Below, piece by piece: positions 1 to 23,537 of a stretch of DNA of 64,000 nucleotides. The position numbers and the translations under genes were made by a program. Positions within the stretch are counted from its first letter, which is position 1. Each line of letters begins with the position of its first letter. The notes below the pieces were generated by a model. The model was not told where the DNA came from. It saw only the letters and a program-made list of their open reading frames with translations, and did no database searches. Location: assembly GCA_963666285.1 (NCBI GenBank), contig OY762711.1. The stretch is one strand, 5' to 3'. Source of the DNA: Sedimentisphaerales bacterium (lineage in GTDB: Bacteria > Planctomycetota > Phycisphaerae > Sedimentisphaerales > SM23-30).

Positions 1-2
1 CC

Positions 3-2372: not shown

Positions 2373-2455
2373 AGCAAGCAATATACAATATCCTACTCAT
2401 TGTATGACCGATTTTATCCTTTGGTTTCAATGAGCTTATAACTGCTGTATCCTTA

Positions 2456-2490
2456 CCGCCCGCTGCTCGCTGCTGGCCGCTGATTGCCTG
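2456..2490 (+). repeat. Degenerate 7-bp tandem repeat (CCGCCCG CTGCTCG CTGCTGG CCGCTGA TTGCCTG)
   Basis: Five imperfect heptamers read directly in the intergenic DNA. Confidence 0.45.
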
Positions 2491-2662
2491 TCTATTAATT
2501 ACTTTTGATTTACTCTCAATTTTTGCTATCATAAGTGTGTTATTTTGGAAAATTGATTAATGGCCGGGGATGCTGACTTTCTTTATCTCTTTGGCCTTAA
2601 ATGGTTTACTTATAATATTTTAAGGTTGTGTTTCGTATTTGGTCTCAAAGTTGTTTTTTTAC

Positions 2663-2690
2663 CTGAAACTTGAAACCTGGTCCCTGAACC
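2663..2690 (+). repeat. Degenerate 7-bp tandem repeat (CTGAAAC TTGAAAC CTGGTCC CTGAACC)
   Basis: Four imperfect heptamers just upstream of the RBS of the GLUG gene. Confidence 0.45.
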
Positions 2691-2710
2691 CTTAAATTAG
2701 GAAAGAGATT

Positions 2711-5299
2711 ATGAAAAAGTCTGGTCTGTTTGTATTTTTATTGGTTCTATTTACTAGTTCACTCACCATGGCCGCCAACGGCGACCTCGGCGTTTCCAGT
2801 GGTGCCGATGGCTCCGAATCCGATCCCTTCCTCATCGAAGACTTTACCGACTTCCAGGCATTCTGCGCCGACACCGCTAAATGGGCTTCCGGCGTCCACA
2901 CCCGCCTCGAAACCGACCTCGACCTTGCCCCCAATCTCCCTGGCAGACAAATCTATACCCAGGCACCAATTGCAGGCGATACCGACTCCGATTACACCTT
3001 TGACGGCACAGCCTTTGCGGGCAGCTTCAATGGCAATAATCATGTGATTAAAAATCTGGAAATCAATGGAGCATACTATTGTGGACTATTCGGTAAAACA
3101 GAGTCAGGTTGTGAGATAACCAATCTTGGTTTAGACAATATCGCTATCACTGGCGATTATTATACCGGCGGTCTTTGTGGTGAAAATCATGGTACTATCT
3201 CCAACTGTTATGCAACTGGTTCGGTTTTGGGCAATCATTCTATCGGCGGTCTTTGTGGTGAAAATCAAGGTACTATCTCCAACTGTTATGCAACTGGTTC
3301 GGTTTCGGGTGATCATTCTATCGGCGGTCTTTGTGGTGAAAATCAAGGTACTATCTCCAACTGTTATGCAACTGGATCAGTTTCGGGTGGTAGTCGCTCA
3401 TATACTCTCGGTGGTTTCTGTGGGTATAATCCATCTGGTACTATTATCAACTGTTTTCATTATTTTTATGGTGGACCCGATAATGGCTTTAGTTCTCCTC
3501 TTGACGATAATGAGTTGCAGACTAAAGCTAGTTTCATTGGTTTTGATTTTTCTGGCGATTCATCTGACGGTACTGATGATTATTGGTCTATTGAGGCTGG
3601 TTATATGCCGAGACTTTCATGGCAAATTTCATCCGGTTTTGAACCTCCGTATTTATTAAACACTTTAGTAACTTCACTTCCTGGCACAGGCTACTCTAAT
3701 GATCCGTTTATTATTACTGACTATGATGATATTTTAGAATTTAGAAATAACAGTTCACTTCGTATCGGGTATTATAGTCTGGTAGCAGATATTGACCTGG
3801 TTGGTATTACATATCCAGATGCATTTATACCGGAATATTTTTTGGGAACATTACTTGGTAATGGTCATGTAATATCAAATCTGGCGATTGATGGAGAGTC
3901 AGGCCTTGGCTTTTTTAAGATAGTGTATGGTTCTGTAACCAATCTTGGTTTAGACAATATCGCTATCACTGGCGATTATTATACCGGCGGTCTTTGTGGT
4001 GAAAATTGGGGTACTATCTCCAACTGTTATTCAACTGGTGATGTTTCGGGTGGACATATTTCGAATTTTACCGGCGGTCTTTGTGGTGAAAATTGGGGTA
4101 CTATCTCCAACTGTTATTCAACTGGTGATGTTTCGGGTGGACATATTTCGAATTATACTGGCGGGCTTTGTGGTGAAAATAGAGGTTCTATCTCTAATTG
4201 TTATTCAACTGGCTGTGTTTCGAGTGATTATTATTCGTATTATATCGGTGGGCTTTGTGGTGAAAATAGCGGCACTATCTCTAACTGTTATTCAACTGGC
4301 AGTGTTACCGGTGAACGTACAACCTATTACCTGGGTGGACTGTGCGGGGAGAATACTGGCGTAATAACTCATTGTTATTCAACTGGCAGTATAATCGGTC
4401 ATGATAATTGTTATCAACTTGGCGGCATCTGTGGGAAAAATGGTACACGAAATTTAGAAGGGATAATTTCCTATTGTCATTTTACCGGTAGCGTAACTGG
4501 TGAATTAGATTGCGGCGGTCTTGGTGGCTTATGTGGGGTTATTTATTCTGGCATAATAACCAACTGTTATTCAACTGGCAGCGTAACAGGCGGATTGTAT
4601 TGTCGTTACATCGGCGGATTCTGCGGGCAAAAAGCTTCAATTGAATTTAATGGCTTTTGGAATAGGATTTCTAATTGCTATTCAACTGTGAATGTTAACT
4701 GTGGAGATTATAGTAGTTCTATAGGTGGTTTCTGTGGAGCGAGTGGTAGCGGCGCATTAAGCAATTGCTATTCTACTGGGAATGTTAACTGTGGAGATTA
4801 TAGTAGTTCTATAGGTGGTTTCTGTGGAGCGAATGGTAGCGGAGTATTAAGCAATAGCTATTCTATCGGCAGCGTATCAGGTGGAGTTGAATGTACCTAC
4901 CTCGACGGATTCTGCGGATACATGACAAGGTCGTCACATAGTGATACCACCCTCGGTGACATTAGTAATTGTTTCTGGGATAATGAAACTTCAGGTATTT
5001 CGACAAACAACCATTATTACGACAAAACCACCGCCGAGATGCAAACCCAATCTACCTTCACCGATGCCGGCTGGGACTTCAACGTCGAATCCGACAACGG
5101 CACAGACGACCTCTGGCATATGCCGTACAACGCAGCCGGTTACCCAATACTCTACTTCCAGCGTGACATCCCCGGCGACCTCTCCGGCTCCTATGGCATA
5201 AACCTCTCCGACTTCAGCGAATTGTCCAATGGCTGGATGATTGATTTTGAATTTGCTGATTTGGAAGAACTGGCAGAATATTGGCTGGAAGGTAAATAA
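2711..5299 (+). CDS. Secreted GLUG-motif repeat protein with C-terminal dockerin-like domain
   Basis: Signal peptide; two 'G....PF.I....D' GLUG-family N-caps; more than 12 GGLCGEN.GTISNCYSTG repeats; TTAEMQ..STF..AGWDF; C-terminal GDL.G.YGINLSDF...WL. Confidence 0.88.
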   Translation: MKKSGLFVFLLVLFTSSLTMAANGDLGVSSGADGSESDPFLIEDFTDFQAFCADTAKWASGVHTRLETDLDLAPNLPGRQIYTQAPIAGDTDSDYTFDGTAFAGSFNGNNHVIKNLEINGAYYCGLFGKTESGCEITNLGLDNIAITGDYYTGGLCGENHGTISNCYATGSVLGNHSIGGLCGENQGTISNCYATGSVSGDHSIGGLCGENQGTISNCYATGSVSGGSRSYTLGGFCGYNPSGTIINCFHYFYGGPDNGFSSPLDDNELQTKASFIGFDFSGDSSDGTDDYWSIEAGYMPRLSWQISSGFEPPYLLNTLVTSLPGTGYSNDPFIITDYDDILEFRNNSSLRIGYYSLVADIDLVGITYPDAFIPEYFLGTLLGNGHVISNLAIDGESGLGFFKIVYGSVTNLGLDNIAITGDYYTGGLCGENWGTISNCYSTGDVSGGHISNFTGGLCGENWGTISNCYSTGDVSGGHISNYTGGLCGENRGSISNCYSTGCVSSDYYSYYIGGLCGENSGTISNCYSTGSVTGERTTYYLGGLCGENTGVITHCYSTGSIIGHDNCYQLGGICGKNGTRNLEGIISYCHFTGSVTGELDCGGLGGLCGVIYSGIITNCYSTGSVTGGLYCRYIGGFCGQKASIEFNGFWNRISNCYSTVNVNCGDYSSSIGGFCGASGSGALSNCYSTGNVNCGDYSSSIGGFCGANGSGVLSNSYSIGSVSGGVECTYLDGFCGYMTRSSHSDTTLGDISNCFWDNETSGISTNNHYYDKTTAEMQTQSTFTDAGWDFNVESDNGTDDLWHMPYNAAGYPILYFQRDIPGDLSGSYGINLSDFSELSNGWMIDFEFADLEELAEYWLEGK

Positions 5300-5384
5300 T
5301 AGCCGAATCATTCAGTGCCTTTGATAAATCGCCTAAAAGGGACTTACTGCAACGCTTTGAATTTAAACAAAATGTGAGACGATA

Positions 5385-5994
5385 GCGAATTATTCCTGAT
5401 GTCAACGTACATCGGGGCACCGGAATTTTTCATTTTTAATTTAGCAAAGCTCACCACTCTTCTTATTTTTTAGATTTCCAGATTTCAGACAGATACTACA
5501 ATTTTGACATAAACTGTACTCACGCGTCAGCTTTAAAATAGTCGTCCCGATGTATATCGGGACACCTCCTTTACAATTTTTATTTTACCCTTTACACTTC
5601 AGATGCCGCGAAGCGGCATCTGGTTGGCCCAGTGGTGAAAACCAGGCGGATAGGCTCATGGTAAATGTCTGCCGTTATGGCTCCGTGGCCCGCCGCGCAC
5701 CCTCCGGTGGCCGCCGCGCTATCGCCGTGCGGTCTCCGTAGGTATGCCGTAAGTTAAGAAGAGCTCTTCTCGCCGCCGCGCTAATCCGTTGCCCCTCCGT
5801 AAGCCGCCGTTGCCCGTCGCGCTGGCTCAATAGCCCGCCGTCGGTCGGCGTTCGCCGGGACGAGCCGCCGTTTCTCTTTTTAACGCCGCACTGCCTCCGC
5901 GCTGCCTCCGCGATACCTCCGTACACCCGCCGCGAGGTCTCCGCAAGTCGTCAATGGTGTTCCGCTGCCCGCGGCAGGCTTTCGCGCGAAATTA
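5385..5994 (-). repeat. ~600 bp non-coding element, copy A (inverted copy of 9546-10144), with a 10-11 bp phased RCGG(A/C)G array and palindromes
   Basis: The reverse complement aligns by eye over its full length with 9546-10144 (roughly 85-90% identical). GC-rich core at 5670-5975. Confidence 0.92.
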
Positions 5995-6107: not shown

Positions 6108-7664
6108 TTACTCAGAAATTGATAATGCACCGGTCGGGCAGGATTCAGCCAGATCAGCAGCCAGTTCGGCAGGCAGTTCGCCAAGATCCATGCCAAGCGG
6201 AGCAACCACCCTGGTATCATAGCCCCGACAACTGAACGTAAGTGCCTTATCTGGATTAAAGTTAGCAGATATTTGTACGCATATGCCGCACTTTATGCAC
6301 TTGCCTGGCTCATAGATGAGCCTATTACTCCCGGCATACTCTATTGTATATTCCTTACGCTGAGAATGTTTGTACGCTGTCGGCGAAGCATCCAGTAAGC
6401 TGCTGTATTTACGCAACTTACAATTGTCAACATCACGACAGTCACAATGCAGACAATCTGCTGCGGTTGGTTTTTCGCTGCTCTTTTCGCTCTTGCTATC
6501 CAGCATATCACGCAGCCGGGCTATCCGAAACAGCTCATCTTCGGTAAACTTGCCTATTCGAGTATTGAACGGTTTGGGCTCACCAGTTACAGGAACACCC
6601 GCCAGAAACTGGCAAATACTCACCGCCGCATATCGGCCCTGACCAACCGCACGAACTGCCATCCGCCCCGCCTGGTTGATTCCACCTGCGGTAAACACAT
6701 TCTTAAACTCTTCATTAACAGATACTTGCAAGGCAAGCTTATCAATTACCGGTTTTTCAGATTCTCCGGTAACCAGCCCCCATTGAACAAAAAACTCATC
6801 ACTTTTAGGGCCGGTTGCCAGCAGTACCGCATCATATTTACCCGTAAGCTCTGTCAGCGTTAAGTCTTTACCAAGCTCACTTTGTGAATATTCAGCTCCC
6901 ATCTCAAACGGCATAGCAGTTTCAGCCTTCAGAATATCAGCCGGCAGCTTCTCAGACTCTATCTGGAGCAGACCGCCGCCTGGTTCGGCTTGTTTATCAA
7001 ATACCGTAGCCTTATGCCCTGCAAGGGTTAAGTGCCACGCAGCAGACAGACCGGCAGGACCGGCACCGACAATTGACACACTCTTGCCCGTACTGGCAGC
7101 CGGTTTTGGTACAGCCATATTATTGATAATATAATAGCCGACATCTCCTTTAAGCTCACAGATCGGTATGGACCTACCTGTTTGCTTATGTCGGCATATT
7201 TTTTCGCATGGTGCCGGGCATATCGCCGCCAGAATTCCCGGTATCGGTATCGTCTGCCGCACAATTTCCGCGGCTCTCGGCATGTCACCGGCACTTATCG
7301 CTCGCAGCATATTGGGAATGTCCAGATCAGCCGGACACGCTACCTGACAAGGCCCCAGGCAGTCGCCCAGATGCTCGCTCAGCAGCAGTTCTAAAGCCTT
7401 ACGACGCAAGTGGATAACTTCCTCGGTCTCACTGTCGATTCGCATTTCATGTGTAACCTCGGTCGCACAGGAAGGAGCAAATCCGGCCCGGCCATGAATT
7501 TTCACCAGGCAGACCATACAGGTAGTATTCGGCTTGCACTTTTTGTTATAGCACAATACCGGAATCTCGATCCCGGCTTCTTTTGCAGCCTGATAAATCG
7601 TTTTACCAGCTTCAGTTACGATCTGTTTGCCGTCAATAGTAATTGTTATCTGCCTGCTGTCCAT
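6108..7664 (-). CDS. Fe-S flavoprotein: N-terminal NuoG/FdhA-like 2Fe-2S domain, GltD-like FAD/NAD(P) oxidoreductase core, C-terminal 4Fe-4S domain
   Basis: IPVLC..CxxC...PSC (2Fe-2S); PCQVACP...ICPAPCEKIC (GltD-type clusters); VGAGPAGLSAA dinucleotide fold; CLHCDC..C.LR; CIKCGICV...CPTGAL. Confidence 0.85.
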   Translation of the reverse strand: MDSRQITITIDGKQIVTEAGKTIYQAAKEAGIEIPVLCYNKKCKPNTTCMVCLVKIHGRAGFAPSCATEVTHEMRIDSETEEVIHLRRKALELLLSEHLGDCLGPCQVACPADLDIPNMLRAISAGDMPRAAEIVRQTIPIPGILAAICPAPCEKICRHKQTGRSIPICELKGDVGYYIINNMAVPKPAASTGKSVSIVGAGPAGLSAAWHLTLAGHKATVFDKQAEPGGGLLQIESEKLPADILKAETAMPFEMGAEYSQSELGKDLTLTELTGKYDAVLLATGPKSDEFFVQWGLVTGESEKPVIDKLALQVSVNEEFKNVFTAGGINQAGRMAVRAVGQGRYAAVSICQFLAGVPVTGEPKPFNTRIGKFTEDELFRIARLRDMLDSKSEKSSEKPTAADCLHCDCRDVDNCKLRKYSSLLDASPTAYKHSQRKEYTIEYAGSNRLIYEPGKCIKCGICVQISANFNPDKALTFSCRGYDTRVVAPLGMDLGELPAELAADLAESCPTGALSISE

Positions 7665-7817
7665 AAGTAATATAATATAGTGTTATTACAGGATTTATAC
7701 CAGAAATTTGTCGATAATAATAAAGTTGAAATTATTTTGCTTTGAATAATGAATAACTAGTGATATTATTATGTAACCGTATTTAATGGACTTACAATCA
7801 AAAACCTACCTGAAAAC

Positions 7818-8999
7818 ATGGATGCAGCTCAAGCGGACAACCTTTCATATATCTATATAGATTCCAACGAAGCAATAGCCGAAGTATGTGAAAAAATGCA
7901 GCATGCAGATGCCGTTGCTATCGATATCGAATGTGACAGTCTATACCATTATTATGAAAAAGTTTGCCTGCTTCAACTTTCATTTTCCGGTGTAAACTAT
8001 TTAATAGACACACTTTGTGGAATTGGCGTCGGTCAGGTACTGGATGTCTTATCACGTCAGAAGATCATCGTGCACTGCGGTGATTATGATTTCCGGATGC
8101 TGCGAAAATGCTATGGCTTTTTGCCCAGGGGCGAGGTTTTTGATTCCTGGATAGCTGCCCGGCTATTGGGATTTGAACGGGTTTCACTGTCAGATCTGGT
8201 TAGGACCATGCTGGATGTTGACCTGCCGAAAAGCTCACAGAAATCCGACTGGTCGCGCAGACCCTTGTCAGATAAGCAGATAGAATACGCAGTAAGAGAC
8301 ACCTGCTACCTGGAACAGCTGGCAGGCAAGCTATCAGATACGCTGGAGGCTAAGGGCCGCAGCCAATGGAACGAGCAAGGCGTCCAAGAGATGCTCCAGC
8401 GAGCCAGTTTTACCGAAGAGCAGGAAAACAATAACCCAGATAAAGTATGGCGTATAAAGGGTTTAAATAAATTATCCACCCGTCAGCTGGAATATGTCCG
8501 GCAGTTGTGGTTCTGGCGTGACATACTGGCCAGGAAGATGGACCGGCCACACTTTAAGGTGATGTCGAATTCAATGATAATAGATATCGCTATCTGGGCC
8601 TCCAAACACCATCACCATAGTAAACCGGTTACTGCCATCAAAGGCGTTAGAATGCCTAAGACCCTTAATGGAAAGCGTTTAGAAAGTTTTACCCGGGCAC
8701 TGAACCGAGGCCATAAAACAGCAGATGCCAAGCTGCCGCCAAGAAGACTGCCGGTGGATAACAGCGATTATGATGAGAATTATGCACTGCTGGACGTCGA
8801 ACCATATCAGAAGGCATGCTGCCAGGTAGCCGAGAAGCTTGGAATTGAGCCGCCAATACTGGTGACTCGCGCTCAATGGTATAAGATTCTGATCGAAATG
8901 CCGGGCGATATAGATGAGATTTTACAGAAAGCCGAGATACTTCCCTGGAAATATGAGTATATCAAGGAAATGCTCAACATGGTCGAATCCGGTAGCTAA
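7818..8999 (+). CDS. rnd: Ribonuclease D (DEDDy 3'-5' exonuclease plus HRDC domain)
   Basis: AIDIE, CLLQL, H...YD, SDWSRRPLS.KQIEYA..D; HRDC motif LWFWRD..AR..DRP.FKV. Confidence 0.9.
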   Translation: MDAAQADNLSYIYIDSNEAIAEVCEKMQHADAVAIDIECDSLYHYYEKVCLLQLSFSGVNYLIDTLCGIGVGQVLDVLSRQKIIVHCGDYDFRMLRKCYGFLPRGEVFDSWIAARLLGFERVSLSDLVRTMLDVDLPKSSQKSDWSRRPLSDKQIEYAVRDTCYLEQLAGKLSDTLEAKGRSQWNEQGVQEMLQRASFTEEQENNNPDKVWRIKGLNKLSTRQLEYVRQLWFWRDILARKMDRPHFKVMSNSMIIDIAIWASKHHHHSKPVTAIKGVRMPKTLNGKRLESFTRALNRGHKTADAKLPPRRLPVDNSDYDENYALLDVEPYQKACCQVAEKLGIEPPILVTRAQWYKILIEMPGDIDEILQKAEILPWKYEYIKEMLNMVESGS

Positions 9000-9030
9000 G
9001 TATATATAATAATGGAGCTTATGAGTTTTT

Positions 9031-9435
9031 ATGCACTTTAATAAAGGCAGACAAGACAAAGATGAAGGTCTGAATTTCACCGCTATGATAGATGTGGTGT
9101 TTCTGCTGCTGATATTCTTTATGTGTACAGCTTCGGTGCAGCTGCCCGAAAGTGAGATCAAGGCCGCCATTCCCGGCAGCTCCAATACCGTACCGGAGTT
9201 TCAGCCGGTGCGAATCGATATAAATACTGTTGGAGAAAATATTTCTGTAACTTGTGACGGCCGGCTCTGTGAAAATGACAGCACATTGAGCAGCCATATA
9301 TCCGCCCGTAGCCAGATAGCCGATCTGCCGGTTATCTTTTCTATTGATGACAATGTTGAGTTTGACGATATCGTGCATGTAATGGACATATGCCGACAAT
9401 CCGGCCTCAAAAAGCTTGCCATACCTACTAACTAG
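9031..9435 (+). CDS. exbD: ExbD/TolR family biopolymer transport protein (no exbB next to it)
   Basis: LNFTAMIDVVFLLLIFFM transmembrane motif; C-terminal D....F..IV.VMD.C..SG. Confidence 0.88.
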   Translation: MHFNKGRQDKDEGLNFTAMIDVVFLLLIFFMCTASVQLPESEIKAAIPGSSNTVPEFQPVRIDINTVGENISVTCDGRLCENDSTLSSHISARSQIADLPVIFSIDDNVEFDDIVHVMDICRQSGLKKLAIPTN

Positions 9436-9545
9436 CCCTATCCACCTGCTTTGGTACAACCAATTTTAAGCAAAACTGGTACTTCCATTTCTGTTTTTTG
9501 TCAGGTCGTTTTTACTTTCATGTTATCCCCTGAGGAATTGTGCAG

Positions 9546-10144
9546 TAATACGCGTGAAAACTTGCCGCGGGCAGCGAAACTCCATCGGCTACCTGCGGAG
9601 ACCTCGCGGCGGGTGTACGGAGGTATCGCGGCGGCAAGCGGCGGCAGCGCGGCGTTAAAAAGAGAAACGGCGGCTCGTCCCGGCGAACGTCGATCAACGG
9701 CGGGCTATTGAGACAGCGCGACGGTTAGCGGCGGCTTACGGAGGCCCAACGGATTAGCGCGGCGGCGAGAAGAGCTCTTCTTACCTTACGGCATACCTAC
9801 GGAGGCTACGCGGCGATAGTACGGCGGCCAACGGAGGGTACGCGGCGGGCCACGGAGCCATAACGGCGAATATTCACTCTGTGCCAATCCGCCGGATTTT
9901 CACCACTGGGCTGACCAGATGCCGCTCCGCGGCATCTGAAGTGTAAAGGGTAAAATAAAAAGAGTAAAGGAGGTGTCCCGATGTACATCGGGACGACTTA
10001 TTTTAAAGCTGACGCGTGAGTAAATTTTATATCAAAATTGCAGTATCTGTCTGAAATCTGAAAATTAAGAGGAGTGGTGAGCTACGCTAAATTAAAAATG
10101 AAAAATTAAGGTGTCCTGATGTACGTTGACCAGGAATAATTCGC
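9546..10144 (+). repeat. ~600 bp non-coding element, copy B (inverted copy of 5385-5994), with a 10-11 bp phased RCGG(A/C)G array and palindromes
   Basis: CGG cores at 9586, 9596, 9607, 9618, 9629, 9639, 9650; 9729, 9739, 9750, 9760; and 9789, 9800, 9811, 9822, 9832, 9843, 9853, 9864. Palindromes at 9768-9781, 9916-9938 and 9975-9994. Confidence 0.92.
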
Positions 10145-10970
10145 ATTTGCGGACAACTTGTTTTAAACGGCTACGCCTTATAAGAGAACCGCTGATGAAC
10201 ACCGATGCACACCGATAAAGAAAAGAAATGGAAAGCGATTGGCAGATGAGCAGTAGAACAGGAAAGTTGAAGTTCAAGTAATTTTGAAATGATTTATTTC
10301 TCGCAAAGACCGCGAAGCTCGCAAAGGATTTGAGCTGTGAATAATGAAATGGTAAATACTGACTAATACTGTCTGGGCAAAAAACGGTTGTAATTTTTTG
10401 GTAATTGGAATATGTTTTGGGGAGTGGGTATTAATTTGCGGGCAGATTGTTTTAAACGGCTACGCCTTATAAGAGAACCACTGATAAACACCGATGCACA
10501 CCGATAAAGAAAAGAAATGGAAAGCGATTGGCAGATGAGCAGTAGAGCAGGAAAAGGAAAGTTGAAGTTCAAGTAATTTTGAAATGATTTATCTCTCGCA
10601 GAGACCGCGAAGCTCGCAAAGGAATTGAGCTGTGAATAATGAAATGGTAAATACTGACTAATACTGTCAGGGCAAAAAACGGTTGTAATTTTTTGGTAAT
10701 TGGAATATGTTTTGGGGAGTGGGTATTAATATGCTGACAGTTTGTTTTAAGCGGCTACGCCTTATAAGCGAACCACTGATAAACACCGATGCACACCGAT
10801 AAAGAAAGAAAAAATGGAAATCGATTGGCAGATGAGCAGTAGAACAGGAAAAAGAAAGTTGAAGTTCAAGTAATTTTGAAATGATTTATCTCTTGCAGAG
10901 GATTTGAGCTGTAAATAATAAAACAGTAAATATTGGCTAATACTGTCTGTCAAAAAACGGTCGTATAAAA
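10145..10970 (+). repeat. Tandem repeat of ~290 bp, three copies (third partial)
   Basis: Units start at about 10145, 10434 and 10729 (periods 289 and 295 bp). Each contains TTGTTTTAARCGGCTACGCCTTATAAG, ACACCGATGCACACCGATAAAG and GATTGGCAGATGAGCAGTAGA. Confidence 0.93.
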
Positions 10971-11097
10971 ATGACAAATACCGGAGGCACTTGCGTCTTC
11001 ACCTTTGGCAACGACGCGACGGAGATGTGCCTATTTAAACCGCCTGTTGACGTAAATACCATTCCTGCAATTTTGCTGATGTTCGCAGATAATAATA

Positions 11098-12537
11098 TTA
11101 TTTTTGCCATAGCCAGTCAGCTGCAAATTGGGCGAGGTCGGCCAGGTCGATATTGTTATCGTTGTTGCTGTCGTGACGGTGGCGGTGTTCCATAGTGAAA
11201 GTATAATTACCGCCGGCCTGACCGTCATTGTCACCGTCGATTGAGTTGCCGGTTGCTGAACTTACAACGGAGTCTTTTACAATGATAGTGTATTTATCAT
11301 TGAGTAGAGTTTCGCCGAAAGCAATGATAAGAAATGAGCTACCGCTGCCGGTAACGCTAAGCGGAATGGTTTCGCCGGTTTCGTTAGTGATTTCAATATC
11401 ACTGTTGTTGAACTCTATGATATCGTTGAAGAACAGGGTTGCAGAATCTATACCGTTCTCGTTGGTATATACACCATCAGTTGGATTTTTCGGTTCGCGC
11501 ATGACAAATTCGGGGCCAATAGTTACAGCGTCAGCTTTATAGATATGCCATATGCCGTTAGCATCTGATACATACATATGCATACTGTCGTCGCTGACAG
11601 TTATTGACTCAATATTATAAAACCCCTTGGCAAATTCACTATCGGAACCATCCGGTTCAACTGCTTGAACCGCATTAGTATAGCGTTCGGTGACATATAA
11701 TTGTTGGCCAAACGAACCGCCATTGCTAAAGGCGAGGTCACGATATTGTCGACTGTTTGTATGGACAGGTGAATTTAACTCAGACCATACCCATTCAGTT
11801 TCAATATTATATAATTGATAGATTACACATTTTTGGTCATGGTTATAATCCCAATCTACCATAGTCAATCTTCCATTATATAACCCAGTTGAGTCGGTTT
11901 TCATACCCCAAATATCTAGGTCTGTTCTTCCTATTGGAAGTGAATTTTGAGATATCTTAGTCATGTTGAAACTAGTGTCTGCAATGTACAAGCTAGAACC
12001 ACCAGTAACATGTCCATCAACGAGAATTATATTAGCATTAGATGATTTATCGATAACAAAATCAAATATGCAACATAAATAATCAGAACTGTCTCCAAGA
12101 GCAGATTCAACTGTAAATTGATTCATTCCAGAAAGACGAATTAAATTAGTCCTATTTGTTTCATTATTATTATCGCTGTCGTATTGTACTGATATGAAAA
12201 GCTCACTACTAAACTGACCGGTCCAATCAAAACGAATTGAACGAACATCGCTAACATTCGGGTAGCCACTTTTAATTCCTATTGATGTTACAATTCCATT
12301 AGATATCCTAAAAACTTTAAGTATCCCATTATCAACACCAGCAGCAACTACACCTGTGCCATAAGCTGGATTTCTAACTGCTTCCAGTCTAGGTGTTTGG
12401 CCGTCCAGAGCAGATATGATATGTGTTACGACAAAATTTGTATCAGGATTGCCATCTGGTCCAACTACATATGGGTCAGCAAAAACTAAAGCAGGCAAGC
12501 AGAGAGTGATTGTTAAACTTAAAATAGTAGACTTCAT
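11098..12537 (-). CDS. Secreted protein with beta-propeller-like region, Ig-like domain and C-terminal dockerin-like motif
   Basis: Start moved to MKSTILSL (ATG 12537, GAGG RBS); signal peptide; L.NDKYTI.V.D.V....GNSIDGDNDG.AGGNY.F.F (Ig-like); DSNNDNNIDLADLAQFAADWL. Confidence 0.75.
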   Translation of the reverse strand: MKSTILSLTITLCLPALVFADPYVVGPDGNPDTNFVVTHIISALDGQTPRLEAVRNPAYGTGVVAAGVDNGILKVFRISNGIVTSIGIKSGYPNVSDVRSIRFDWTGQFSSELFISVQYDSDNNNETNRTNLIRLSGMNQFTVESALGDSSDYLCCIFDFVIDKSSNANIILVDGHVTGGSSLYIADTSFNMTKISQNSLPIGRTDLDIWGMKTDSTGLYNGRLTMVDWDYNHDQKCVIYQLYNIETEWVWSELNSPVHTNSRQYRDLAFSNGGSFGQQLYVTERYTNAVQAVEPDGSDSEFAKGFYNIESITVSDDSMHMYVSDANGIWHIYKADAVTIGPEFVMREPKNPTDGVYTNENGIDSATLFFNDIIEFNNSDIEITNETGETIPLSVTGSGSSFLIIAFGETLLNDKYTIIVKDSVVSSATGNSIDGDNDGQAGGNYTFTMEHRHRHDSNNDNNIDLADLAQFAADWLWQK

Positions 12538-13061
12538 TATATTGATCCTCAAATAAAATTTATCTTTATTCGTAACTTGAAGGTGAATTACAAGCGGGTA
12601 TAAAAGCAATTTCCAGAGGTCACCTAAATAATAAGCAACCATCAAAATTTACGTCCTATAACTGTGTATATGATAGCTGTCATTTTTTGAAAAAACAAGT
12701 ATTTGTAAATGATTTCATGATGGGAGCAGGGTTTGAGGTGGTTGTGTGTTTGGGTTATGTTTATTTTTTATAAGTATTTATGTGGATTTTGGTAATATGT
12801 TTTTGTGTAAAATTTATGCAATGGGTGAAAAAATGTAATTTATGCGGTTTTGGCGGGGTATAAGTAGTTGTGTAAGTAAAAGCGTTAAAAAATGTGATAA
12901 AAGATATGAGTGGCAACGGAGGTGAGACGATAGTAGTTGGGAGGTTTTACCGGTGTAGTTATTTTTATTGAGAATTACGATAATTGCCTGTATATTAAGG
13001 GTTTGTTGAAAGTTTTTATGCCGGAATGAAGGCGAGATTCAGAAAGATAAGGGTTTGAAAC

Positions 13062-15428
13062 TTGTACAAACGGTCGATTAACATATTGCTGCTGTTGCTA
13101 TTTTATGCCGGGATGGTTATGGGCCAGGTGGTGGTCAATGAAGTTGAGGAGAGCAAGATAGAGTCCGGTGTGGAAGTGTCGGTCAGCAGGTTAACCGTGG
13201 AAGAGCAGGTAGAGCAGTTGATACTGGATGCCTTTGGCGATACGGACGGTTATGTCGAGCTGCTTGATAAGGCGCAGGCTTTGGCGAAGGATATGCCCGA
13301 AGGAAAGTCAGGATTTTTCGAAGTGTATATTAACCAGAGCAAGCTTCGGATAGCGGCGTCCAAGGTTAGTGTAAGGCTGGAGAATGGCGAAGAGGGAGTA
13401 GAATTGTCGATGCAGGCGAGGCTGCTGGCGAAAGGGCTGGCGGAGTCTGCCGAACAGATGGAAGAGTTGAAAGCCGGGCTGAATAAGAAGCTTGAAGATA
13501 TCAAGATGTATAACCGTAAGCAGCGAGGGCGGATGCTGGGGTTGATAAGTCGCTGCGAATATAGTAACGGCTGGGTGTATTATTCGATATCGACAATAGC
13601 AGGAAACGGTTTGAAGGAGCATTTCTTAAGCGAGGCGGAGAAGATCTTTACGCGTTTTCTGGCGAAGGACTATCAGGCAGTGAATCTGCCGGTAATGGTG
13701 AACTGCCTGTATGGTAAGGGTCTGTGCCTGAGAGATTCCGGCAGGTATTATGATCTGCTGGTGATGCTGGATACGATGTCGGTGAGTGATTCCAATGCGG
13801 TAAAGTTTGCACGATTGCGGCTGGCGGCTTCGGTGAAGCTGAGTTTGAGTGTCGAGATATTGAGGGTGGTGCAGGAGTATTTTGAAGATGATGCAATTGA
13901 TAAGCGTCTGACGGGTGAGGAGCTGGAGATGCTGGTGAATTGTATCGAGGCGGGCGTCAGGCTGCTGGACAGGGATTTGCCGATAAAGATGAAAATGTCT
14001 TTGCGAAAGCAGCTGGTTAAGGCGATAGACCGTACAGAAGGTTACGGTCAGTACTGGCAGGACCGGGTGAGCGATTTACTGGGTGATCTGGATTTGAAGA
14101 GTCCTTATGTTAAGCTGCTGCAGGCTTACGATGAATCGGCTGACGGTCGAGACTACGAAAAGATATTCAGCCTGGCAGATGATGGTCTGAAGTTATGTGA
14201 TGAAAGTGAGCCGGAAAAGAAGAGTGAATTTTTGTATTTGAAGGTAATATCAAGCTGGAACTCGAAGAAATTTGACGATGCGTGGGGTTCGGCATATCTA
14301 TTTATGGAAGAGTTTCCCGGTAATGTTCATAGTGAGCAGGTGGCCGGGATATTATGCCAGGTTTCGATAAAGATAGTAGAGCAGGACCGGGCCAGGTTCA
14401 AGGAAGTTTACGGTAAATTGGCCGGTATGCTGGATAAGGGGCAGGTTGATAGCGAGGAGTATATGTGGACGAGCGGGTGTCTGCTAATTAATGCCGGGGA
14501 ATACAAGGAAGGGTATGAGTATTTCCACCAGGAGGAAGTGGTTGAAGTGCTGGAGGTAAAGAGCTATTACGGCATGCTGCTGGCGGTATTGCCGATGATG
14601 AGGGAGGGTGAGCTAACGGACCGCGAGGCAGTTGACAGTGTTGAGGAGTGCTGCAGGGAGTTTACCGCGAGTAATGGAAGTTTTGTGCAGACCAGCCACT
14701 TTGTCGAGGCGGCAGATATAATATGCGAGATAGCCAGTGAGCTTTTGGGCAGAGAGAAGTACGATCTTGCGGGGCGAATACTGGGTCTGGTAGAGTTTAT
14801 GCCGCATATTCGGGGTGAAATATTCGCAAAATATATGGGAGTAAATATATCTTATCGACTGGCGATGGGCGGCAGGCTGGATGAATTTATCGATGAGATA
14901 ACAAGTAAGAATCTGCATAATGATCCTAAGATATTTAACCTGCTGGTGAGTGAATCACGCAAACTTGAGATGGCGGCCGAGAAAGAAAATGAGCTGTTGA
15001 TACGGATATACCGGCTGCTGCTGAGCAGTAAGCTGCTGGATGATAAGAATGCGGTGGCGGTACGAATATACCTGGCACAATGTTATTACGGCAGCGGCGA
15101 TTACGTTCATTTTTTGAACCTGGCGGAGTCGATTGTAAAAAGTTACCCGATGCATGTTACTGTGGTTTTTTATCGCCAGATGGCGGTATCGTATCGAGAG
15201 GAGGGAGATTATGTCCGTTCGGCAGAATACTGGAATATGGTTTTACAGAATAGTGTCGAGATGAAAGAAGGCTGGAAAGAGGCTTTGTATAATAAGATTT
15301 TCTGTTATAATAAGGGCGGCGAGCGGGAGAAAGCAAGCCAGATCATGAATCTGGCGTTATTACGCAGGCCAGAGCTATTGGAGGAAGAGCGGTTTAAGAC
15401 ATTGAAGGGCGAGATGGGTAATGAGTAA
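13062..15428 (+). CDS. Large secreted alpha-helical (TPR-like) protein
   Basis: 788-aa ORF; signal peptide; helical repeats such as LYGKGLCL, YLAQCYY..GDY and W.EALYN...CY..GG..EKA. Confidence 0.65.
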   Translation: MYKRSINILLLLLFYAGMVMGQVVVNEVEESKIESGVEVSVSRLTVEEQVEQLILDAFGDTDGYVELLDKAQALAKDMPEGKSGFFEVYINQSKLRIAASKVSVRLENGEEGVELSMQARLLAKGLAESAEQMEELKAGLNKKLEDIKMYNRKQRGRMLGLISRCEYSNGWVYYSISTIAGNGLKEHFLSEAEKIFTRFLAKDYQAVNLPVMVNCLYGKGLCLRDSGRYYDLLVMLDTMSVSDSNAVKFARLRLAASVKLSLSVEILRVVQEYFEDDAIDKRLTGEELEMLVNCIEAGVRLLDRDLPIKMKMSLRKQLVKAIDRTEGYGQYWQDRVSDLLGDLDLKSPYVKLLQAYDESADGRDYEKIFSLADDGLKLCDESEPEKKSEFLYLKVISSWNSKKFDDAWGSAYLFMEEFPGNVHSEQVAGILCQVSIKIVEQDRARFKEVYGKLAGMLDKGQVDSEEYMWTSGCLLINAGEYKEGYEYFHQEEVVEVLEVKSYYGMLLAVLPMMREGELTDREAVDSVEECCREFTASNGSFVQTSHFVEAADIICEIASELLGREKYDLAGRILGLVEFMPHIRGEIFAKYMGVNISYRLAMGGRLDEFIDEITSKNLHNDPKIFNLLVSESRKLEMAAEKENELLIRIYRLLLSSKLLDDKNAVAVRIYLAQCYYGSGDYVHFLNLAESIVKSYPMHVTVVFYRQMAVSYREEGDYVRSAEYWNMVLQNSVEMKEGWKEALYNKIFCYNKGGEREKASQIMNLALLRRPELLEEERFKTLKGEMGNE

Positions 15429-15540
15429 TTGATGCCGGTTATGATCAGTGTTTTTTTGCATGGATAAAGGCAAAAGTTTGAATTTATTTGTGAAAATATT
15501 AATCAGGAGAGCGAAGTTTTAAGTTTTCGGAAATTGCATT

Positions 15541-18459
15541 ATGGCTGAGTGGAAGATTGTATACAAAATATTGAATATATCGACGGATAGAGAGCCCAAT
15601 GCCTGGGAGATACTTGGGGTCGATCGCAGAGAGAATGATCTTCGCAAGATATTGTCCGCGTTTGAAGAGCGCAAGCGTATACTGGCAGCCGGAGTTACGG
15701 GTCAGCGTCAAATGGTCCTGATACGCAAATTTCAGCAGGAAGTTCTGGTGCCGGCGTTTAATAAAGTATGTACCGAAGCCGAACGTGACGAAGTTGAGGA
15801 TCTGGAAGAGCCTGAAACAATCGAGGAAGAGATACCGGAAGTTGAAGAAGATGAATTTCGTTTGAAAGAAACAGATGACGATAATGTTTATTCGTTGGCA
15901 ACGGGAGATTATATAGATGCCGATGAATTTCTTAAACCGGACGAAAAGTCTGCTCCAGTTGAGGCGGAGGATGACGACAGAGGGGCAATTCCATTTTTGG
16001 AAGTAATGGAGGACAGCGTCAGTTCAGAGGCTATAGAAGCAAAAGCAGAACCTGACAGTAAGAAGTCCAATGATGATAGTGATGATTACCAGGTGCCTGT
16101 GCTGCTGGATGCGGATCAGTTTGTGCCGGAGCTTGAGTCTTCGCAGGAACTGCAGGCGTTGCAAAATGTGATGGATGACTCTAAGGTTGAGGAGCAGCTT
16201 GACAGTTTTGAAGAGTTGGGTGTGGCTGAAGAAGAAGAGGGAGAAGAACCGAAGAAACAGAAAAAGCAGCTTGGCCGAGAAAAGTACCTTCTGTATTTAA
16301 TTGCAATAATACCATTTATTGCGCTTGGAGTATTTGCAATTGTTTTGATGAATATGGATCCGGAAAAGGACGGTGGGGCTGATACGGTAGAAGTTGGGCA
16401 GGTGTCTGAAGTAGAAAGCGGGCAGGATACAGGTTTGGCGGCAGATGCGGGTGATGGAAGCATGGACCCAGATAAGCCGGACAAACAGGCATCGGTAACA
16501 GAGGCTGTATTGCCAGAGAATAAGAAGTTGTCGCTGGGAGTCAAGTCTGTCGAGGTGCCGGTAAGGTTTTCATTTTTGATCGACGAGGTGAGGGCGAGTT
16601 TCTCAGACGGTTCAAGTTCGGTAGAAATTCTTGAGGATATAGCTGTAATTCTGAAGGCGTGGCAAATAATAGTGCAGAATGCACCGGAGACCTCTGATTA
16701 TGTTTTAATGCTGCAGAATATGCGGCACAGGGGCAGAGCTGATAAAATTTTTGATTTGAAATCATCCGGGGTCGATTACCTCGATTCAATTTTAAGTAAG
16801 CCGGACAGTTCGATAGATTTTCCGATAGAGTTTTTCCGGGAAGAGTTTGATTCAGGAGATAAGGTCAGGATATGGCGGGCAATAGAGCTGGCGGGTATTT
16901 CCGGAAGTACTTCGCTGCAGGAATTTATTTTTGACGAACTGGATAAGAAGAAGGACCAGGAACTAGCCTGCAGGATGATCCGTGCGTTGTGTATCTGGTC
17001 ATCGGCAACAGAGCAACTGGCTATGCTGGATTTGCTGAAGCCGGGCAAGCGTGAATTGGCGAAGATGATGTTCGGTAACCTGCTGATACGTTATGAGATC
17101 GATCCGCTGTCGTCCGGTGCCTATGAAAGTCTGCTGCCCCATAGCTTTACAAGCCGGGATCTGGCCAGGACTATGGAATGGTGGCAGAATTATCTTTTGC
17201 GATTGTCGCCGTCGATGGCGGTAAGCAGTGGGTTGGTTTCCGGTAATATGGGTGTGTCAAGAGCTCAAGGGGCAGACAGGATAACAGAAACTTCATACCA
17301 GGGCAATGTCTTGGCGGTAATATGGAAGAATTCGATCGAGTTGAGTGCCGCGTTAAGAAGTACCCGCGGCATGCCTTTACTGTCGCCAGATATAGAGATT
17401 AATCCATCGATAACATATCCGGTCAGCCAGGTATTATTCAGAAGTGTAAAACAGCTTTCAGAGGGGCTGCTTGCGGTCATGTACGATGAATATTCGAAGG
17501 AGGATTTTTTAGAGGATCTGGATATTCTTCGTTTTCATGCGTTGGAGTATGAGTTTGGTGATGTTGATCTTCGCGCTCCGTATAAGGCTGAGGAAGTGTC
17601 AGTGTATTGCGACCTGATCTCCGGCGGTGAGTTTTCCGGAAAATTTAAGACAGCACAGCTAATTGAAGGGCAATCGCCATTGTTAGCAGTTCGCAAGAGC
17701 CTGTTCGAAGCAATGACAAAATATGCGGCAAGTTCGATAGTAGATTATAAGTCAGATTTTATAGGAGATGTATCATATTATATTGAACTTGACTTTGACT
17801 TTGAGTTGAATAACGAATATGAGCTGGTAAATGAATCGGAAGAGAAACTCAAGCAATTACTGGAGGAGTTTCGTTCGGAGCCGTTTTCGGTAGATAAATT
17901 TAACAAGGTTCGTACCGCGAGCAGCCAGGCGGATATGCAGGGTAAGGCCGGCCTAGCCTATTTACAGCTGGCGATAAAGGCGATGCAGTCGAATAATAAA
18001 AATGATGCAGGCGCGATGGCAATAGATTGTTTTAAGAATGCGATGAAATGGCCGGAGAGCCGTGCGATATTAAAAAGTTATACCCCTGGATTATTTGAAT
18101 CTCTATCGGAAGATCCAGATCACCGATGTTCTTATTGTGGAGATACCGGATATAGATTGTGTCCAGAATGTGACGGTATGATTTTTGTATTGTGCCAGGA
18201 ATGCAGGGGAAGCGGCGCTGTGACGGTGCGTCTGGAAGGTCGTGTGACCTGTCCGGATTGCGGAGGTTATGGTATAGTGCCATGCTGGGAATGTGCCGGA
18301 ACGGGAGTGGTTCCATGTATGGAATGTTATGATTACCTGACATCACAGGAACTGTTTTTGCCGGATGATGAAGTTTTGAAGGAACTGCAGCAGGAGATAA
18401 ACCTGGCTACATTGCAGATAAGGGTAGATGTAAAGCCTAAGACGACTTCAGGAAATTGA
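15541..18459 (+). CDS. Single-pass membrane protein: planctomycete-type N-terminal 'P..W/Y.ILGV' domain, acidic linker, TM helix, C-terminal DnaJ-type CxxCxGxG repeats
   Basis: YKILNI....PNAWEILGV; E/D-rich region; TM YLLYLIAIIPFIALGVFAIVLM; CSYCGDTG, CPECDG, CQECRGSG, CPDCGGYG, CWECAGTG, CMEC. Confidence 0.7.
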   Translation: MAEWKIVYKILNISTDREPNAWEILGVDRRENDLRKILSAFEERKRILAAGVTGQRQMVLIRKFQQEVLVPAFNKVCTEAERDEVEDLEEPETIEEEIPEVEEDEFRLKETDDDNVYSLATGDYIDADEFLKPDEKSAPVEAEDDDRGAIPFLEVMEDSVSSEAIEAKAEPDSKKSNDDSDDYQVPVLLDADQFVPELESSQELQALQNVMDDSKVEEQLDSFEELGVAEEEEGEEPKKQKKQLGREKYLLYLIAIIPFIALGVFAIVLMNMDPEKDGGADTVEVGQVSEVESGQDTGLAADAGDGSMDPDKPDKQASVTEAVLPENKKLSLGVKSVEVPVRFSFLIDEVRASFSDGSSSVEILEDIAVILKAWQIIVQNAPETSDYVLMLQNMRHRGRADKIFDLKSSGVDYLDSILSKPDSSIDFPIEFFREEFDSGDKVRIWRAIELAGISGSTSLQEFIFDELDKKKDQELACRMIRALCIWSSATEQLAMLDLLKPGKRELAKMMFGNLLIRYEIDPLSSGAYESLLPHSFTSRDLARTMEWWQNYLLRLSPSMAVSSGLVSGNMGVSRAQGADRITETSYQGNVLAVIWKNSIELSAALRSTRGMPLLSPDIEINPSITYPVSQVLFRSVKQLSEGLLAVMYDEYSKEDFLEDLDILRFHALEYEFGDVDLRAPYKAEEVSVYCDLISGGEFSGKFKTAQLIEGQSPLLAVRKSLFEAMTKYAASSIVDYKSDFIGDVSYYIELDFDFELNNEYELVNESEEKLKQLLEEFRSEPFSVDKFNKVRTASSQADMQGKAGLAYLQLAIKAMQSNNKNDAGAMAIDCFKNAMKWPESRAILKSYTPGLFESLSEDPDHRCSYCGDTGYRLCPECDGMIFVLCQECRGSGAVTVRLEGRVTCPDCGGYGIVPCWECAGTGVVPCMECYDYLTSQELFLPDDEVLKELQQEINLATLQIRVDVKPKTTSGN

Positions 18460-19273: not shown

Positions 19274-19435
19274 TACAGCAGTTTTTCTATTTTTATCGTC
19301 AATTCGATTCTACATAAAATAAAACAGGCATCAAGTTAAAATCCTGTTAGTCCTATTTTTGCTTGTCTGATAAATAATTTAGGTTATTATTTGTATTATA
19401 TGGAAAAGAAAGTTAAAAAAAAGAGGAATAAGAAA

Positions 19436-20206: not shown

Positions 20207-20238
20207 TGAAGAGCTGGTTTAGAATATAGCAGTAAAAT

Positions 20239-20268
20239 AAAAAAGGCTTCGTATAGAAACGAAGCCTT
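20239..20268 (-). terminator. Intrinsic terminator between convergent genes
   Basis: AAGGCTTCGT-N6-ACGAAGCCTT hairpin with an A-run on its left (U-tract on the - strand). Confidence 0.7.
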
Positions 20269-20313
20269 ATGGTGATGATTATGTTTAGTTGAGCGAAAAG
20301 CTCAATTATGAAA

Positions 20314-20952: not shown

Positions 20953-21064
20953 TTTTCTCTCCTCAGAATTTTTAAATACAGTTACTCAATAAAAAATTAT
21001 TAAATTTTGGAAGGGAATGGTGGTGGGACCCAATTTTTCCCTTCTTCTCCGTTTGTGGAATTAC

Positions 21065-21093
21065 ATGATAGGAAATTAAAGCAGATGTGTCAA
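21065..21093 (-). promoter_or_regulatory. Sigma70-type promoter of the 20314-20952 gene
   Basis: - strand reads TTGACA-17 bp-TATCAT. Confidence 0.6.
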
Positions 21094-23505: not shown

Positions 23506-23537
23506 AAATAATGATTCAGCAGTGATTTAGTCAGCGT

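What the first reader, a model, noticed from the sequence alone, without database searches (positions are those of the whole stretch)
9586..9869. Helically phased RCGG(A/C)G array with a 10-11 bp period
Seen: in copy B the CGG cores fall at 9586, 9596, 9607, 9618, 9629, 9639, 9650; 9729, 9739, 9750, 9760; and 9789, 9800, 9811, 9822, 9832, 9843, 9853, 9864. In copy A (CCG on the + strand) they fall at 5672, 5683, 5693, 5704, 5714, 5725, 5736, 5747; 5776, 5786, 5797, 5807; and 5886, 5897, 5908, 5919, 5930, 5941. Within blocks every step is 10 or 11 bp (mean ~10.7). Spacer bases differ from unit to unit, so this is not a simple tandem repeat. Differences between the copies fall mainly in spacers or toggle ACGG/GCGG and CGGAG/CGGCG, while nearly all CGG cores are kept. 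Established: B-DNA has ~10.5 bp per turn, and iteron and parC-type centromere arrays use one-turn phasing. Inference: a strand-polarised platform for cooperative binding on one helix face. The alternative is a CsrB/RsmZ-like protein-sponge RNA, but over half the motifs are GGC rather than GGA and canonical hairpins are poor.
Basis: seen in the sequence. Interest (0 to 1): 0.88.

Follow-up and report, generated by a model that had tools for sequence, protein, structure and literature searches.

The report
Phased arrays marking one-way skew domains
The helically spaced CGG repeat is one of about 70 to 85 such sites spread over this bacterium's chromosome, and each marks the start of a one-directional stretch of roughly 80 kb whose two DNA strands have mutated differently, which suggests an undescribed way of copying or repairing the chromosome from many one-way sites.

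Summary
The phasing is real (0 of 2000 shuffles). The two copies belong to a chromosome-wide family: 72 loci in the main list plus about 11 arrays mostly inside genes, one a 93-bp in-frame insert in panE. RCGGMG units are strand-polar and phase-locked (10.6-10.7 bp) to an anchor, TGGRYNNWCCAGAY. Each array marks a one-way step in base composition. Purine skew at fourfold sites rises from 0 to about +0.2, starting 1-4.5 kb upstream and fading by about 90 kb downstream. It holds for 68 of 72 loci, on either replichore and either gene strand. Arrays avoid each other's downstream zones. In the window the skew flips between the two copies. Best reading: protein-binding platforms that launch one-way, error-prone DNA synthesis, like auxiliary run-off origins. 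A Chi-like polar stop fits almost as well. No binding protein was found. A genus mate has similar domains without these arrays. A CsrB-like RNA is not supported. The scan's earlier notes did not hold this.

The parts
9586..9869 (+). Copy B phased RCGGMG array (subfamily II); blocks 9586-9654, 9729-9765, 9789-9868
9768..9781 (.). Perfect 14-bp palindrome AGAAGAGCTCTTCT between blocks, seen in most subfamily II copies
9907..9920 (+). Anchor TGGRYNNWCCAGAY of copy B; RCGG units lie 44, 55, 65, 76, 86, 97, 108, 119 bp upstream
9921..10960 (+). Train of small hairpins, purine-rich heptamer repeats and three ~290-bp repeats downstream of anchor B
9551..10145 (+). Whole stretch of copy B that is homologous to copy A (88%)
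5670..5944 (-). Copy A phased array, sister of copy B, pointing the other way
5618..5631 (-). Anchor of copy A
5385..5617 (-). Hairpin/heptamer train downstream of anchor A
6108..9435 (.). Ordinary genes between the back-to-back pair (Fe-S/FAD oxidoreductase on -, RNase D-like exonuclease with HRDC domain, ExbD); the strand skew changes sign here (-0.10, then +0.12)
9870..64000 (+). Purine-skew domain downstream of copy B: +0.14 to +0.46 per gene to about 44.3 kb, falling to about 0-0.15 by 50-63 kb
1..5669 (-). Mirror-image domain downstream of copy A; it continues to the left of the window (20 of 20 genes examined have negative + strand skew)
9436..13061 (.). DNA absent between exbD and the TPR-like gene in genus mate G003, where the two are adjacent; holds copy B, its cassettes and a 515-aa gene with no Pfam match

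Best explanation
The array is a polar, cis-acting DNA platform. A sequence-specific protein binds RCGGMG units head to tail on one face of the helix (inferred). The complex starts an occasional one-directional episode of strand-asymmetric DNA synthesis, separate from oriC replication. It begins 1-4.5 kb behind the array, passes through it and runs off over 20-90 kb (inferred from the footprint). Over time the array-bearing strand has gained G and lost T and C (shown). About 70-85 such sites tile the chromosome: back-to-back pairs such as the one in this window act as two-way centres, and sites are rare inside another site's downstream zone (shown). It works like an iteron-type unidirectional run-off origin multiplied across a chromosome. 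The initiator and the polymerase are unidentified.
For: Phasing and polarity. Phase lock to an anchor across unrelated subfamilies, R=0.61 at 10.6-10.7 bp, n=258 units; 53 of 72 loci have the strict anchor and 53 of 61 non-coding anchors have an array. Element-oriented GC skew at fourfold sites goes from about -0.03 to +0.29/+0.30 and back to 0.02 by 60-70 kb; for loci facing against oriC forks from -0.15 to +0.26; gene orientation stays near 0.5. 68 of 72 loci positive, mean 0.204 vs null 0 +/- 0.020, highest of 5000 nulls 0.073. Onset -4.5 to -1 kb, plateau to +20 kb, near-linear decay to ~90 kb. The element model gives r=0.73 over 10-kb windows. 11 further arrays chosen by motif score alone, mostly in ORFs: 10 of 11 show a step the right way, mean 0.17-0.20; reversed-motif controls 0.01, 0.04 and -0.17. 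93-bp in-frame array insert in panE, absent in 3 of 3 genus mates. Neighbour gaps: back-to-back median 32 kb, same direction 69 and 79 kb, facing 120 kb; 0 of 20000 strand permutations. Within 50 kb downstream, 7 neighbours vs 31 expected. The signature differs from the host leading-strand signature (T +0.03 there, -0.07 to -0.09 here). Near-perfect 10-11-bp CGGAG repeats occur in several of 11 viral loci, in settings that look like initiator genes or origins (my reading).
Against: No initiator, helicase or extra polymerase was found: one dnaE, one polA and one chromosomal dnaB, the same counts as in genus mates; no Rep3_N. DnaA2 has the same recognition helix in genomes without arrays. Genus mate G003 has equally strong or stronger domains but no RCGG or other phased array in 1.2 Mb examined, so this motif is not needed for the process in general. 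26 of 68 upward steps have no main-list array within 9 kb, and about half of those have no candidate at all. Array size does not predict step size (rho -0.06). The start model fits only slightly better than a stop model (R2 0.42 vs 0.41 with the 72 loci). The onset lies upstream of the array, which a classical iteron origin does not predict. Single RCGGMG words are 2.1-fold enriched on the purine strand of the domains, so the process itself tends to make the motif. No clear AT-rich unwinding element was shown. All evidence is compositional and from one genome.
Confidence: 0.5

Rival explanations
1. Polar stop (Chi-like or protein roadblock). A resecting helicase-nuclease such as AddAB enters at a break downstream and is stopped or switched at the array, and mutagenic repair synthesis refills the tract. 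Random break positions give the linear decay; overshoot or D-loop length gives the upstream ramp.
For: The stop model gives R2 0.40-0.41 vs 0.42 for the start model (72 loci). AddA-like (1270 aa) and AddB (1165 aa) proteins and a Y-family polymerase are encoded. In E. coli, break-coupled DinB mutagenesis decays over ~60 kb (PMC3607216, abstract seen). The B. subtilis Chi AGCGG resembles the motif (recalled).
Against: Chi is read on single-stranded DNA, which gives no reason for strict 10/11-bp phasing (established knowledge). No replichore polarity: 38 of 72 loci leading; dispersed RCGGMG leading/lagging ratio 1.04. AddAB and the Y polymerase are also in G001, whose 400-kb sample is much flatter. 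The fit falls for ranges above 80 kb.
Confidence: 0.2
2. The arrays are products or passengers. Another, unseen signal starts the one-way process; its G-biased mutation and slippage build RCGG arrays near the start, and repeat families accumulate there.
For: G003 has the domains and co-oriented repeat cassettes without arrays. The onset precedes the array. RCGGMG is enriched on the purine strand throughout domains. Heptamer tandems follow the same strand, 63 of 63 within 3 kb and 27 of 29 at 3-10 kb. Unit number does not predict step size.
Against: Gives no reason for 10/11-bp spacing with unrelated spacers, phase lock to an anchor, or a tolerated 31-codon insert in panE. Arrays found by motif alone predict position and direction of steps. 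Subfamily I (31 copies, 83-91% alike, sharp 5' edge in unrelated flanks) was copied as a unit, and 30 of 31 copies have the step; this is hard to explain unless the element carries the signal.
Confidence: 0.14
3. Start sites for DNA transfer: oriT-like sites for single-strand export, or pac-like sites for headful packaging by the resident ~65-kb phages or a gene-transfer agent. The array then spreads because it lies inside the tract it mobilises.
For: One-way range of the same order as the 65-66-kb phage contigs. An upstream start would carry the array with homology on both sides. Pile-up of neighbours at 76-92 kb, 19 vs 9.9 expected. Phased terminase binding at pac sites is recalled for SPP1.
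Against: No array in contigs C2-C4. No PF02534 coupling protein in 5 of 5 genomes searched (other coupling and relaxase families not searched). Packaging double-stranded DNA gives no strand asymmetry. The decay is gradual, not a headful cut-off.
Confidence: 0.1
4. CsrB/RsmZ-like protein-sponge RNA or another structured ncRNA.
For: One CsrA gene is present. ACGGAG fits ANGGA (recalled consensus).
Against: Only 33% of 581 distinct units have A after CGG. The copy B transcript folds worse than 100 of 100 shuffles, z=+2.3. No Rfam match at E<=5. Arrays also lie inside ORFs. An RNA sponge does not explain 80-kb polar domains.
Confidence: 0.02

Closest known systems
Iteron-type origins of plasmids, phages and satellites (P4 ori/crr, SaPI ori; recalled)
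   Same: Short direct repeats one helical turn apart, strand-polar, at a fixed phase to a neighbouring site. Near-perfect CGGAG 10-11-mers were seen in viral loci.
   Different: Here units are degenerate, there are 70-85 loci on a chromosome with a normal oriC, some lie inside housekeeping ORFs, no initiator gene is adjacent, and the footprint starts kilobases upstream.
Bartonella run-off replication (PMC2697382, passages read)
   Same: Extra chromosomal replication with a gradient falling away from a start site.
   Different: Bartonella has one phage-derived origin at a helicase gene, acting both ways over a ~461-kb region and tied to a gene-transfer agent. Here there are many one-way sites, no helicase gene at the sites, and the evidence is mutational, not copy number.
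Chi sites with RecBCD/AddAB, and break-coupled mutation hotspots (PMC3607216, abstract)
   Same: Polar short motif; mutation gradient over tens of kb; AddAB present.
   Different: Chi is not helically phased and follows the replichores (recalled); these arrays are phased and do not.
Skew N-domains of mammalian genomes (recalled, no call)
   Same: Saw-tooth compositional skew with upward jumps and linear decline.
   Different: Those come from two-way origins in eukaryotes with no defined motif. Here jumps are one-way, tied to a motif, and laid over a bacterial two-replichore skew.
Intergenic heptamer direct repeats (MacGregor 2015, PMC4679880, passages read)
   Same: The cassettes downstream of the anchors are heptamer tandems of this general class.
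   Different: The passages seen relate repeat orientation to start codons; the word 'skew' has 0 occurrences. Here orientation follows the array's strand and fades with distance.
parC/parS centromeres
   Same: parC-type arrays are one-turn phased (recalled).
   Different: Loci are spread over the whole chromosome, and canonical parS palindromes sit separately at oriC.

Membership tests
Iteron origin | Direct repeats in helical phase | tested here: met
Iteron origin | Cognate initiator gene next to the repeats | tested here: not met
   59 neighbour proteins of 19 regions scanned with Pfam and 15 with NCBIfam: no Rep or primase match; no Rep3_N in 4 of 4 genomes
Iteron origin | Adjacent AT-rich unwinding element | tested here: inconclusive
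   only a short T-rich run before most anchors and A-rich heptamers after them
Iteron origin | Initiates replication | not testable with these tools
   the skew step is compatible; no copy-number or nascent-strand data
Chi site | Oriented with the replichores | tested here: not met
   38 of 72 leading; dispersed motif ratio 1.04
Chi site | AddAB or RecBCD encoded | tested here: met
Chi site | Attenuates the nuclease in a polar way | not testable with these tools
   needs biochemistry or end mapping
CsrB/RsmZ RNA | Many GGA motifs in hairpin loops | tested here: not met
   33% GGA; fold z=+2.3; no Rfam hit
CsrB/RsmZ RNA | Discrete abundant transcript | not testable with these tools
   needs stranded RNA data
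parS/parC centromere | Near oriC or beside par genes | tested here: not met
   72 loci genome-wide; two TGTTTCACGTGAAACA palindromes (parS consensus recalled) at oriC
Phage pac site | Present in the cognate phage genome | tested here: not met
   best array score 4.4 in C2-C4, below the cut-off of 5; none seen on reading the top candidates
MITE / REP-type dispersed repeat | Multi-copy unit with a sharp boundary in unrelated flanks | tested here: met
   subfamily I 5' edge, 18 of 31 copies aligned
MITE / REP-type dispersed repeat | Terminal inverted repeats and target-site duplication | not tested
   3' ends are blurred by cassettes; no empty sites from a close strain
Bartonella-type run-off origin | Phage-derived helicase gene at the origin | tested here: not met
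   neighbours are ordinary genes; the only extra DnaB is on phage contig C4

The most novel reading that the evidence does not exclude
This bacterium has a second, chromosome-wide mode of DNA synthesis. A protein reads phased RCGGMG arrays at about 100 polar sites that selection or exclusion has tiled at ~80-kb intervals, even by recoding or inserting into housekeeping genes. Each site launches one-way, error-prone copying that has rewritten codon and amino-acid usage across the genome and set the orientation of heptamer repeats. Related lineages run the same process with other signals.
Probability: 0.45. Interest if true: 0.97.

Novelty: categorically new. Interest (0 to 1): 0.92.

Why it matters
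Bacterial chromosomes are taught to have one origin and one two-armed skew. Here a second, stronger skew (about 0.3 against 0.06-0.08 for GC skew at fourfold sites) is laid down in roughly 80-kb one-way domains, each tied to a short defined DNA signal. If the sites are starts, this gives a direct handle on the long-standing question of extra origins on bacterial chromosomes. If they are stops, it is a new polar signal for break repair with a genome-wide mutational record. Either way the motif, anchor, direction, onset and range are now specified, so pull-down, transplant and nascent-strand tests can be designed at once. It also offers an explanation for the orientation of the unexplained intergenic heptamer repeats.

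Tried and rejected
Homologues elsewhere. 401 genomes of the order: G000 106 matches vs 22 control; next G017 20 vs 2, which are near-perfect CACGGAAAGA-type tandems, a different thing; G084 16 vs 8, G010 10 vs 3. DNA search of 41 genomes gave only 28-38-bp hits outside G000. Viral anchor scan: 1 hit, in an ORF. Metagenome scans: 0 hits and 9 hits without arrays.

Sequencing runs: no RNA holder listed. Three runs were contigs only: nothing on inversion of the segment between the copies. The inner contig had lower depth (7.4 vs 21.4; 19.9 vs 27.7), but left-flank contigs were low too, so no finding.

Other ideas dropped: invertible segment or composite transposon (the genes inside the five pairs examined are unrelated and ordinary; one of six pairs is non-homologous); long-range 80-kb lattice (no periodogram or Rayleigh peak); copy-to-80-kb mechanism (neighbours at ~80 kb are often of different subfamilies); histone-type wrapping (no PF00808); integron (the nearby integrase scores as XerD-like); loss of mismatch repair (MutS in 3 of 4 genomes).

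A single T>G mechanism (8-oxo-dGTP, or uracil-derived abasic sites as in 10.64898/2026.08.21.746158, abstract seen) is not established. In 27 of 31 subfamily I copies T>G was 0.11 per column vs A>C 0.10, while A>G was 0.26 vs T>C 0.10; twofold and Ile codons show A>G and T/C>A components.

A G003 motif search used a mistyped pattern and is uninformative. PMC10945688 (passages) was not relevant. No supplements were read.

Full report
1. Observation. The listed positions are correct. Copy B has 16 RCGGM pairs at 10/11 bp against 0.36 in dinucleotide shuffles (0 of 2000) and 4.5 with random placement (0 of 5000); copy A has 13. In non-coding DNA of the whole chromosome, RCGGMG pairs peak at 10/11, 21, 31/32 and 41-43 bp, with 1 pair at 9 and 7 at 12. 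The window lies on a 6.15-Mb chromosome with three 65-66-kb extra contigs.

2. A family. A scan for linked RCGG units outside long ORFs gave 70 loci; a second scorer added 2 and missed 3 of the 70. They fall into subfamilies of 31, 12 (the window's), 7, 5 and 3 copies, plus 12 singletons in the first 70. Over 581 distinct units the base before CGG is a purine in 97%, the next is C 43% or A 33%, then G 60%; CGG outnumbers CCG 1214 to 110. Units were selected for 10/11 links, so spacing claims rest. Downstream lies an anchor, TGGRYNNWCCAGAY: 53 of 72 loci have it and 53 of 61 non-coding anchors have an array. Units sit about 43/44, 53-55, 65, 76, 86, 97, 108 and 119 bp before it, best period 10.6-10.7 bp; copies within a subfamily are not independent, but representatives of II, V and two singletons share the phase, while III drifts and IV is offset by 1-3 bp. 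After the anchor come hairpins and heptamer repeats, already noted in this genome (e1-2078251). Neighbouring genes are ordinary and varied; one array sits between rnfD- and rnfG-like genes. In genus mate G003 exbD is followed directly by the TPR-like gene, so window 9436-13061 with copy B splits an adjacency kept there.

3. Polar spacing. Six pairs lie back to back 3.3-4.4 kb apart; five are sister copies and one is not. With all 72 loci, 11 gaps are under 30 kb against 21.4 expected (13 of 20000). Gap medians: back to back 32 kb (n=21), same direction 69 and 79 kb (n=16, 14), facing 120 kb (n=21); Kruskal-Wallis p=1.5e-6; 0 of 20000 strand permutations. Within 50 kb downstream there are 7 neighbours against 31 expected, with an excess at 76-92 kb (19 vs 9.9; this bin was chosen after seeing the data). 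There is no strand preference by replichore (38 of 72). oriC is at about 5.74 Mb by skew, dnaN/gyrB, DnaA-box-like words and parS-like palindromes.

4. The footprint. The window's GC skew jumps after copy B, which prompted an oriented metaplot. At fourfold sites GC skew on the array strand goes from about -0.03 to +0.29/+0.30 and returns to 0.02 by 60-70 kb; A exceeds T in parallel; intergenic DNA shows it too; gene orientation does not change; loci opposing the oriC fork go from -0.15 to +0.26. After correcting for gene strand and replichore, 68 of 72 loci are positive (mean 0.204; null 0 +/- 0.020). The effect starts 4.5-1 kb upstream of the array, holds at 0.15-0.23 to +20 kb and fades to 0.02 at 80-100 kb (the printed errors assume independent sites and are too small). 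Net change on the array strand: G +0.09, T -0.07 to -0.09, C -0.02 to -0.04, A +0.01 to +0.03; the host leading strand has T +0.03, A -0.03. Twofold sites show an A>G component (G share 0.498 vs 0.378) and Ile codons a T/C>A component, so one T>G mechanism is not shown. The model explains the chromosome's saw-tooth with r=0.73 in 10-kb windows. In the window, 20 of 20 genes left of copy A are negative, genes right of copy B are +0.14 to +0.46 out to 44.3 kb, and the sign flips between the copies. Heptamer tandems put their purine strand on the array strand in 63 of 63 cases within 3 kb, 27 of 29 at 3-10 kb, 38 of 46 at 10-25 kb and 34 of 52 at 25-45 kb.

5. Predictive test. Of 68 upward steps, 42 have a main-list array within 9 kb (about 13 expected by my arithmetic). 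Taking all other arrays by motif score alone: 11 with score 5 or more, 10 with a step in the right direction, means 0.17 and 0.20; 16 weaker ones 0.06; reversed-motif controls 0.013 (n=24), 0.044 (n=3), -0.17 (n=1). I had already seen seven of the 11, but the selection rule did not use skew. Most lie inside ORFs. In panE the array includes a 31-codon in-frame insert missing from 3 of 3 genus mates; in a Mur ligase it coincides with a diverged stretch.

6. Relatives. No array family was found in the other 400 genomes of the order searched, many of them incomplete, including two near-complete genus mates. G001 is nearly flat over 400 kb (sd 0.09, lag-1 0.25). G003 has strong domains (sd 0.25, lag-1 0.89) with sharp upward steps and co-oriented cassettes, but no phased array or anchor-with-array in the 1.2 of 4.6 Mb examined; only a weak 10-11-bp signal for TGG/CAG-type words. 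So the process is probably older than this motif. This is the main result against a simple reading.

7. Mechanism. Shown: phasing, polarity, anchor, polar spacing, one-way compositional domains. Inferred: protein binding on duplex DNA and episodic one-way synthesis. Start and stop models fit almost equally (R2 0.42 vs 0.41 on 2-kb bins with the 72 loci; 0.49 vs 0.48 with 14 added loci, some of which were picked from steps, so that figure is partly circular). Facing arrays 30-37 kb apart cancel, so tracts run past opposing sites. I favour starts because helical phasing points to duplex binding and the motif ignores the replichores. No trans-acting factor was identified: one dnaE, one polA, one chromosomal dnaB, MutS, AddAB, no PF02534 coupling protein, no Rep3_N. 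Two DnaA paralogues are present; DnaA2 has an altered recognition helix, identical in all 4 genomes, so it remains only a weak candidate. The proteome was not scanned whole.

8. Known systems and novelty. It works most like iteron origins and Bartonella run-off replication (PMC2697382, passages) and next like Chi with break-coupled mutagenesis (PMC3607216, abstract), but fails membership tests for each. Ten literature searches (all but the five papers named in this report seen as listings only) showed nothing describing motif-anchored one-way skew domains on a bacterial chromosome. The library lacks most subscription journals, so this is not proof of absence. The scan's own notes held nothing on it.

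9. Verdict. Interest 0.92; categorically new as far as could be checked; mechanism confidence 0.5.

Noticed in passing
G003:C1 500-1300 kb and 2100-2500 kb (L209-L228, L283-L322): Very strong purine-skew domains (down to -0.57, up to +0.50 per 10 kb) with sharp upward steps, for example at 673, 721, 2270 and 2426 kb, and co-oriented repeat cassettes clustered after the steps, without RCGG arrays.
   Followed up: partly
G001:C1 about 680300-680390 (near the L237/L238 boundary): One array of seven TGG units at 10/11-bp spacing in an otherwise nearly flat 400-kb sample; possibly a related signal.
   Followed up: no
L259:2159-3175 (-), panE-like gene: 93-bp in-frame insertion made of the phased array, absent in three genus mates.
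   Followed up: yes
L336:2073-3470 (-), just beyond the window's end: Second DnaA paralogue (466-aa frame) with an altered recognition helix, conserved in all four genus genomes.
   Followed up: partly
window 10145-10960: Three ~290-bp direct repeats with 9-10-bp internal tandems; further copies lie beside the sister array at 252.9 kb.
   Followed up: no
G000:C1 subfamily I 5' ends, for example 300-350 bp upstream of the arrays at 781266 and 2207703: Sharp element edge with a TTATGTTAAA-like word (resembles an XerD arm, recalled) followed by an inverted repeat GACGAA-GTT-TTCGTC.
   Followed up: no
L060:5639-6682 and other loci: Near-identical 348-aa IS110 transposase genes lie 300-1200 bp downstream of six arrays, and IS3-type pairs downstream of several others; the anchors' downstream side looks like an insertion hot spot.
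   Followed up: no
G000:C2 33620-33720, C3 930-1030, C4 59300-59380: 23-24-bp spaced repeats in the three ~65-kb contigs, likely their own origins; unlike the chromosomal arrays. C4 also encodes a DnaB helicase.
   Followed up: partly
L031 about 1400-1750 and L039-L041 about 1500: Viral contigs with near-perfect 10-11-bp CGGAG repeats, in origin-like non-coding DNA (L031) or inside ORFs that look like initiator genes.
   Followed up: no
L258:4570-7254: Probable oriC region: DnaA-box-like words and two perfect TGTTTCACGTGAAACA palindromes upstream of a parB-like ORF start, with no dnaA next to dnaN.
   Followed up: partly
window 2711-5299 and 11098-12645: A secreted GLUG-repeat protein and a 515-aa protein with no Pfam match face the two arrays from downstream; large secreted repeat proteins recur next to many loci.
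   Followed up: no
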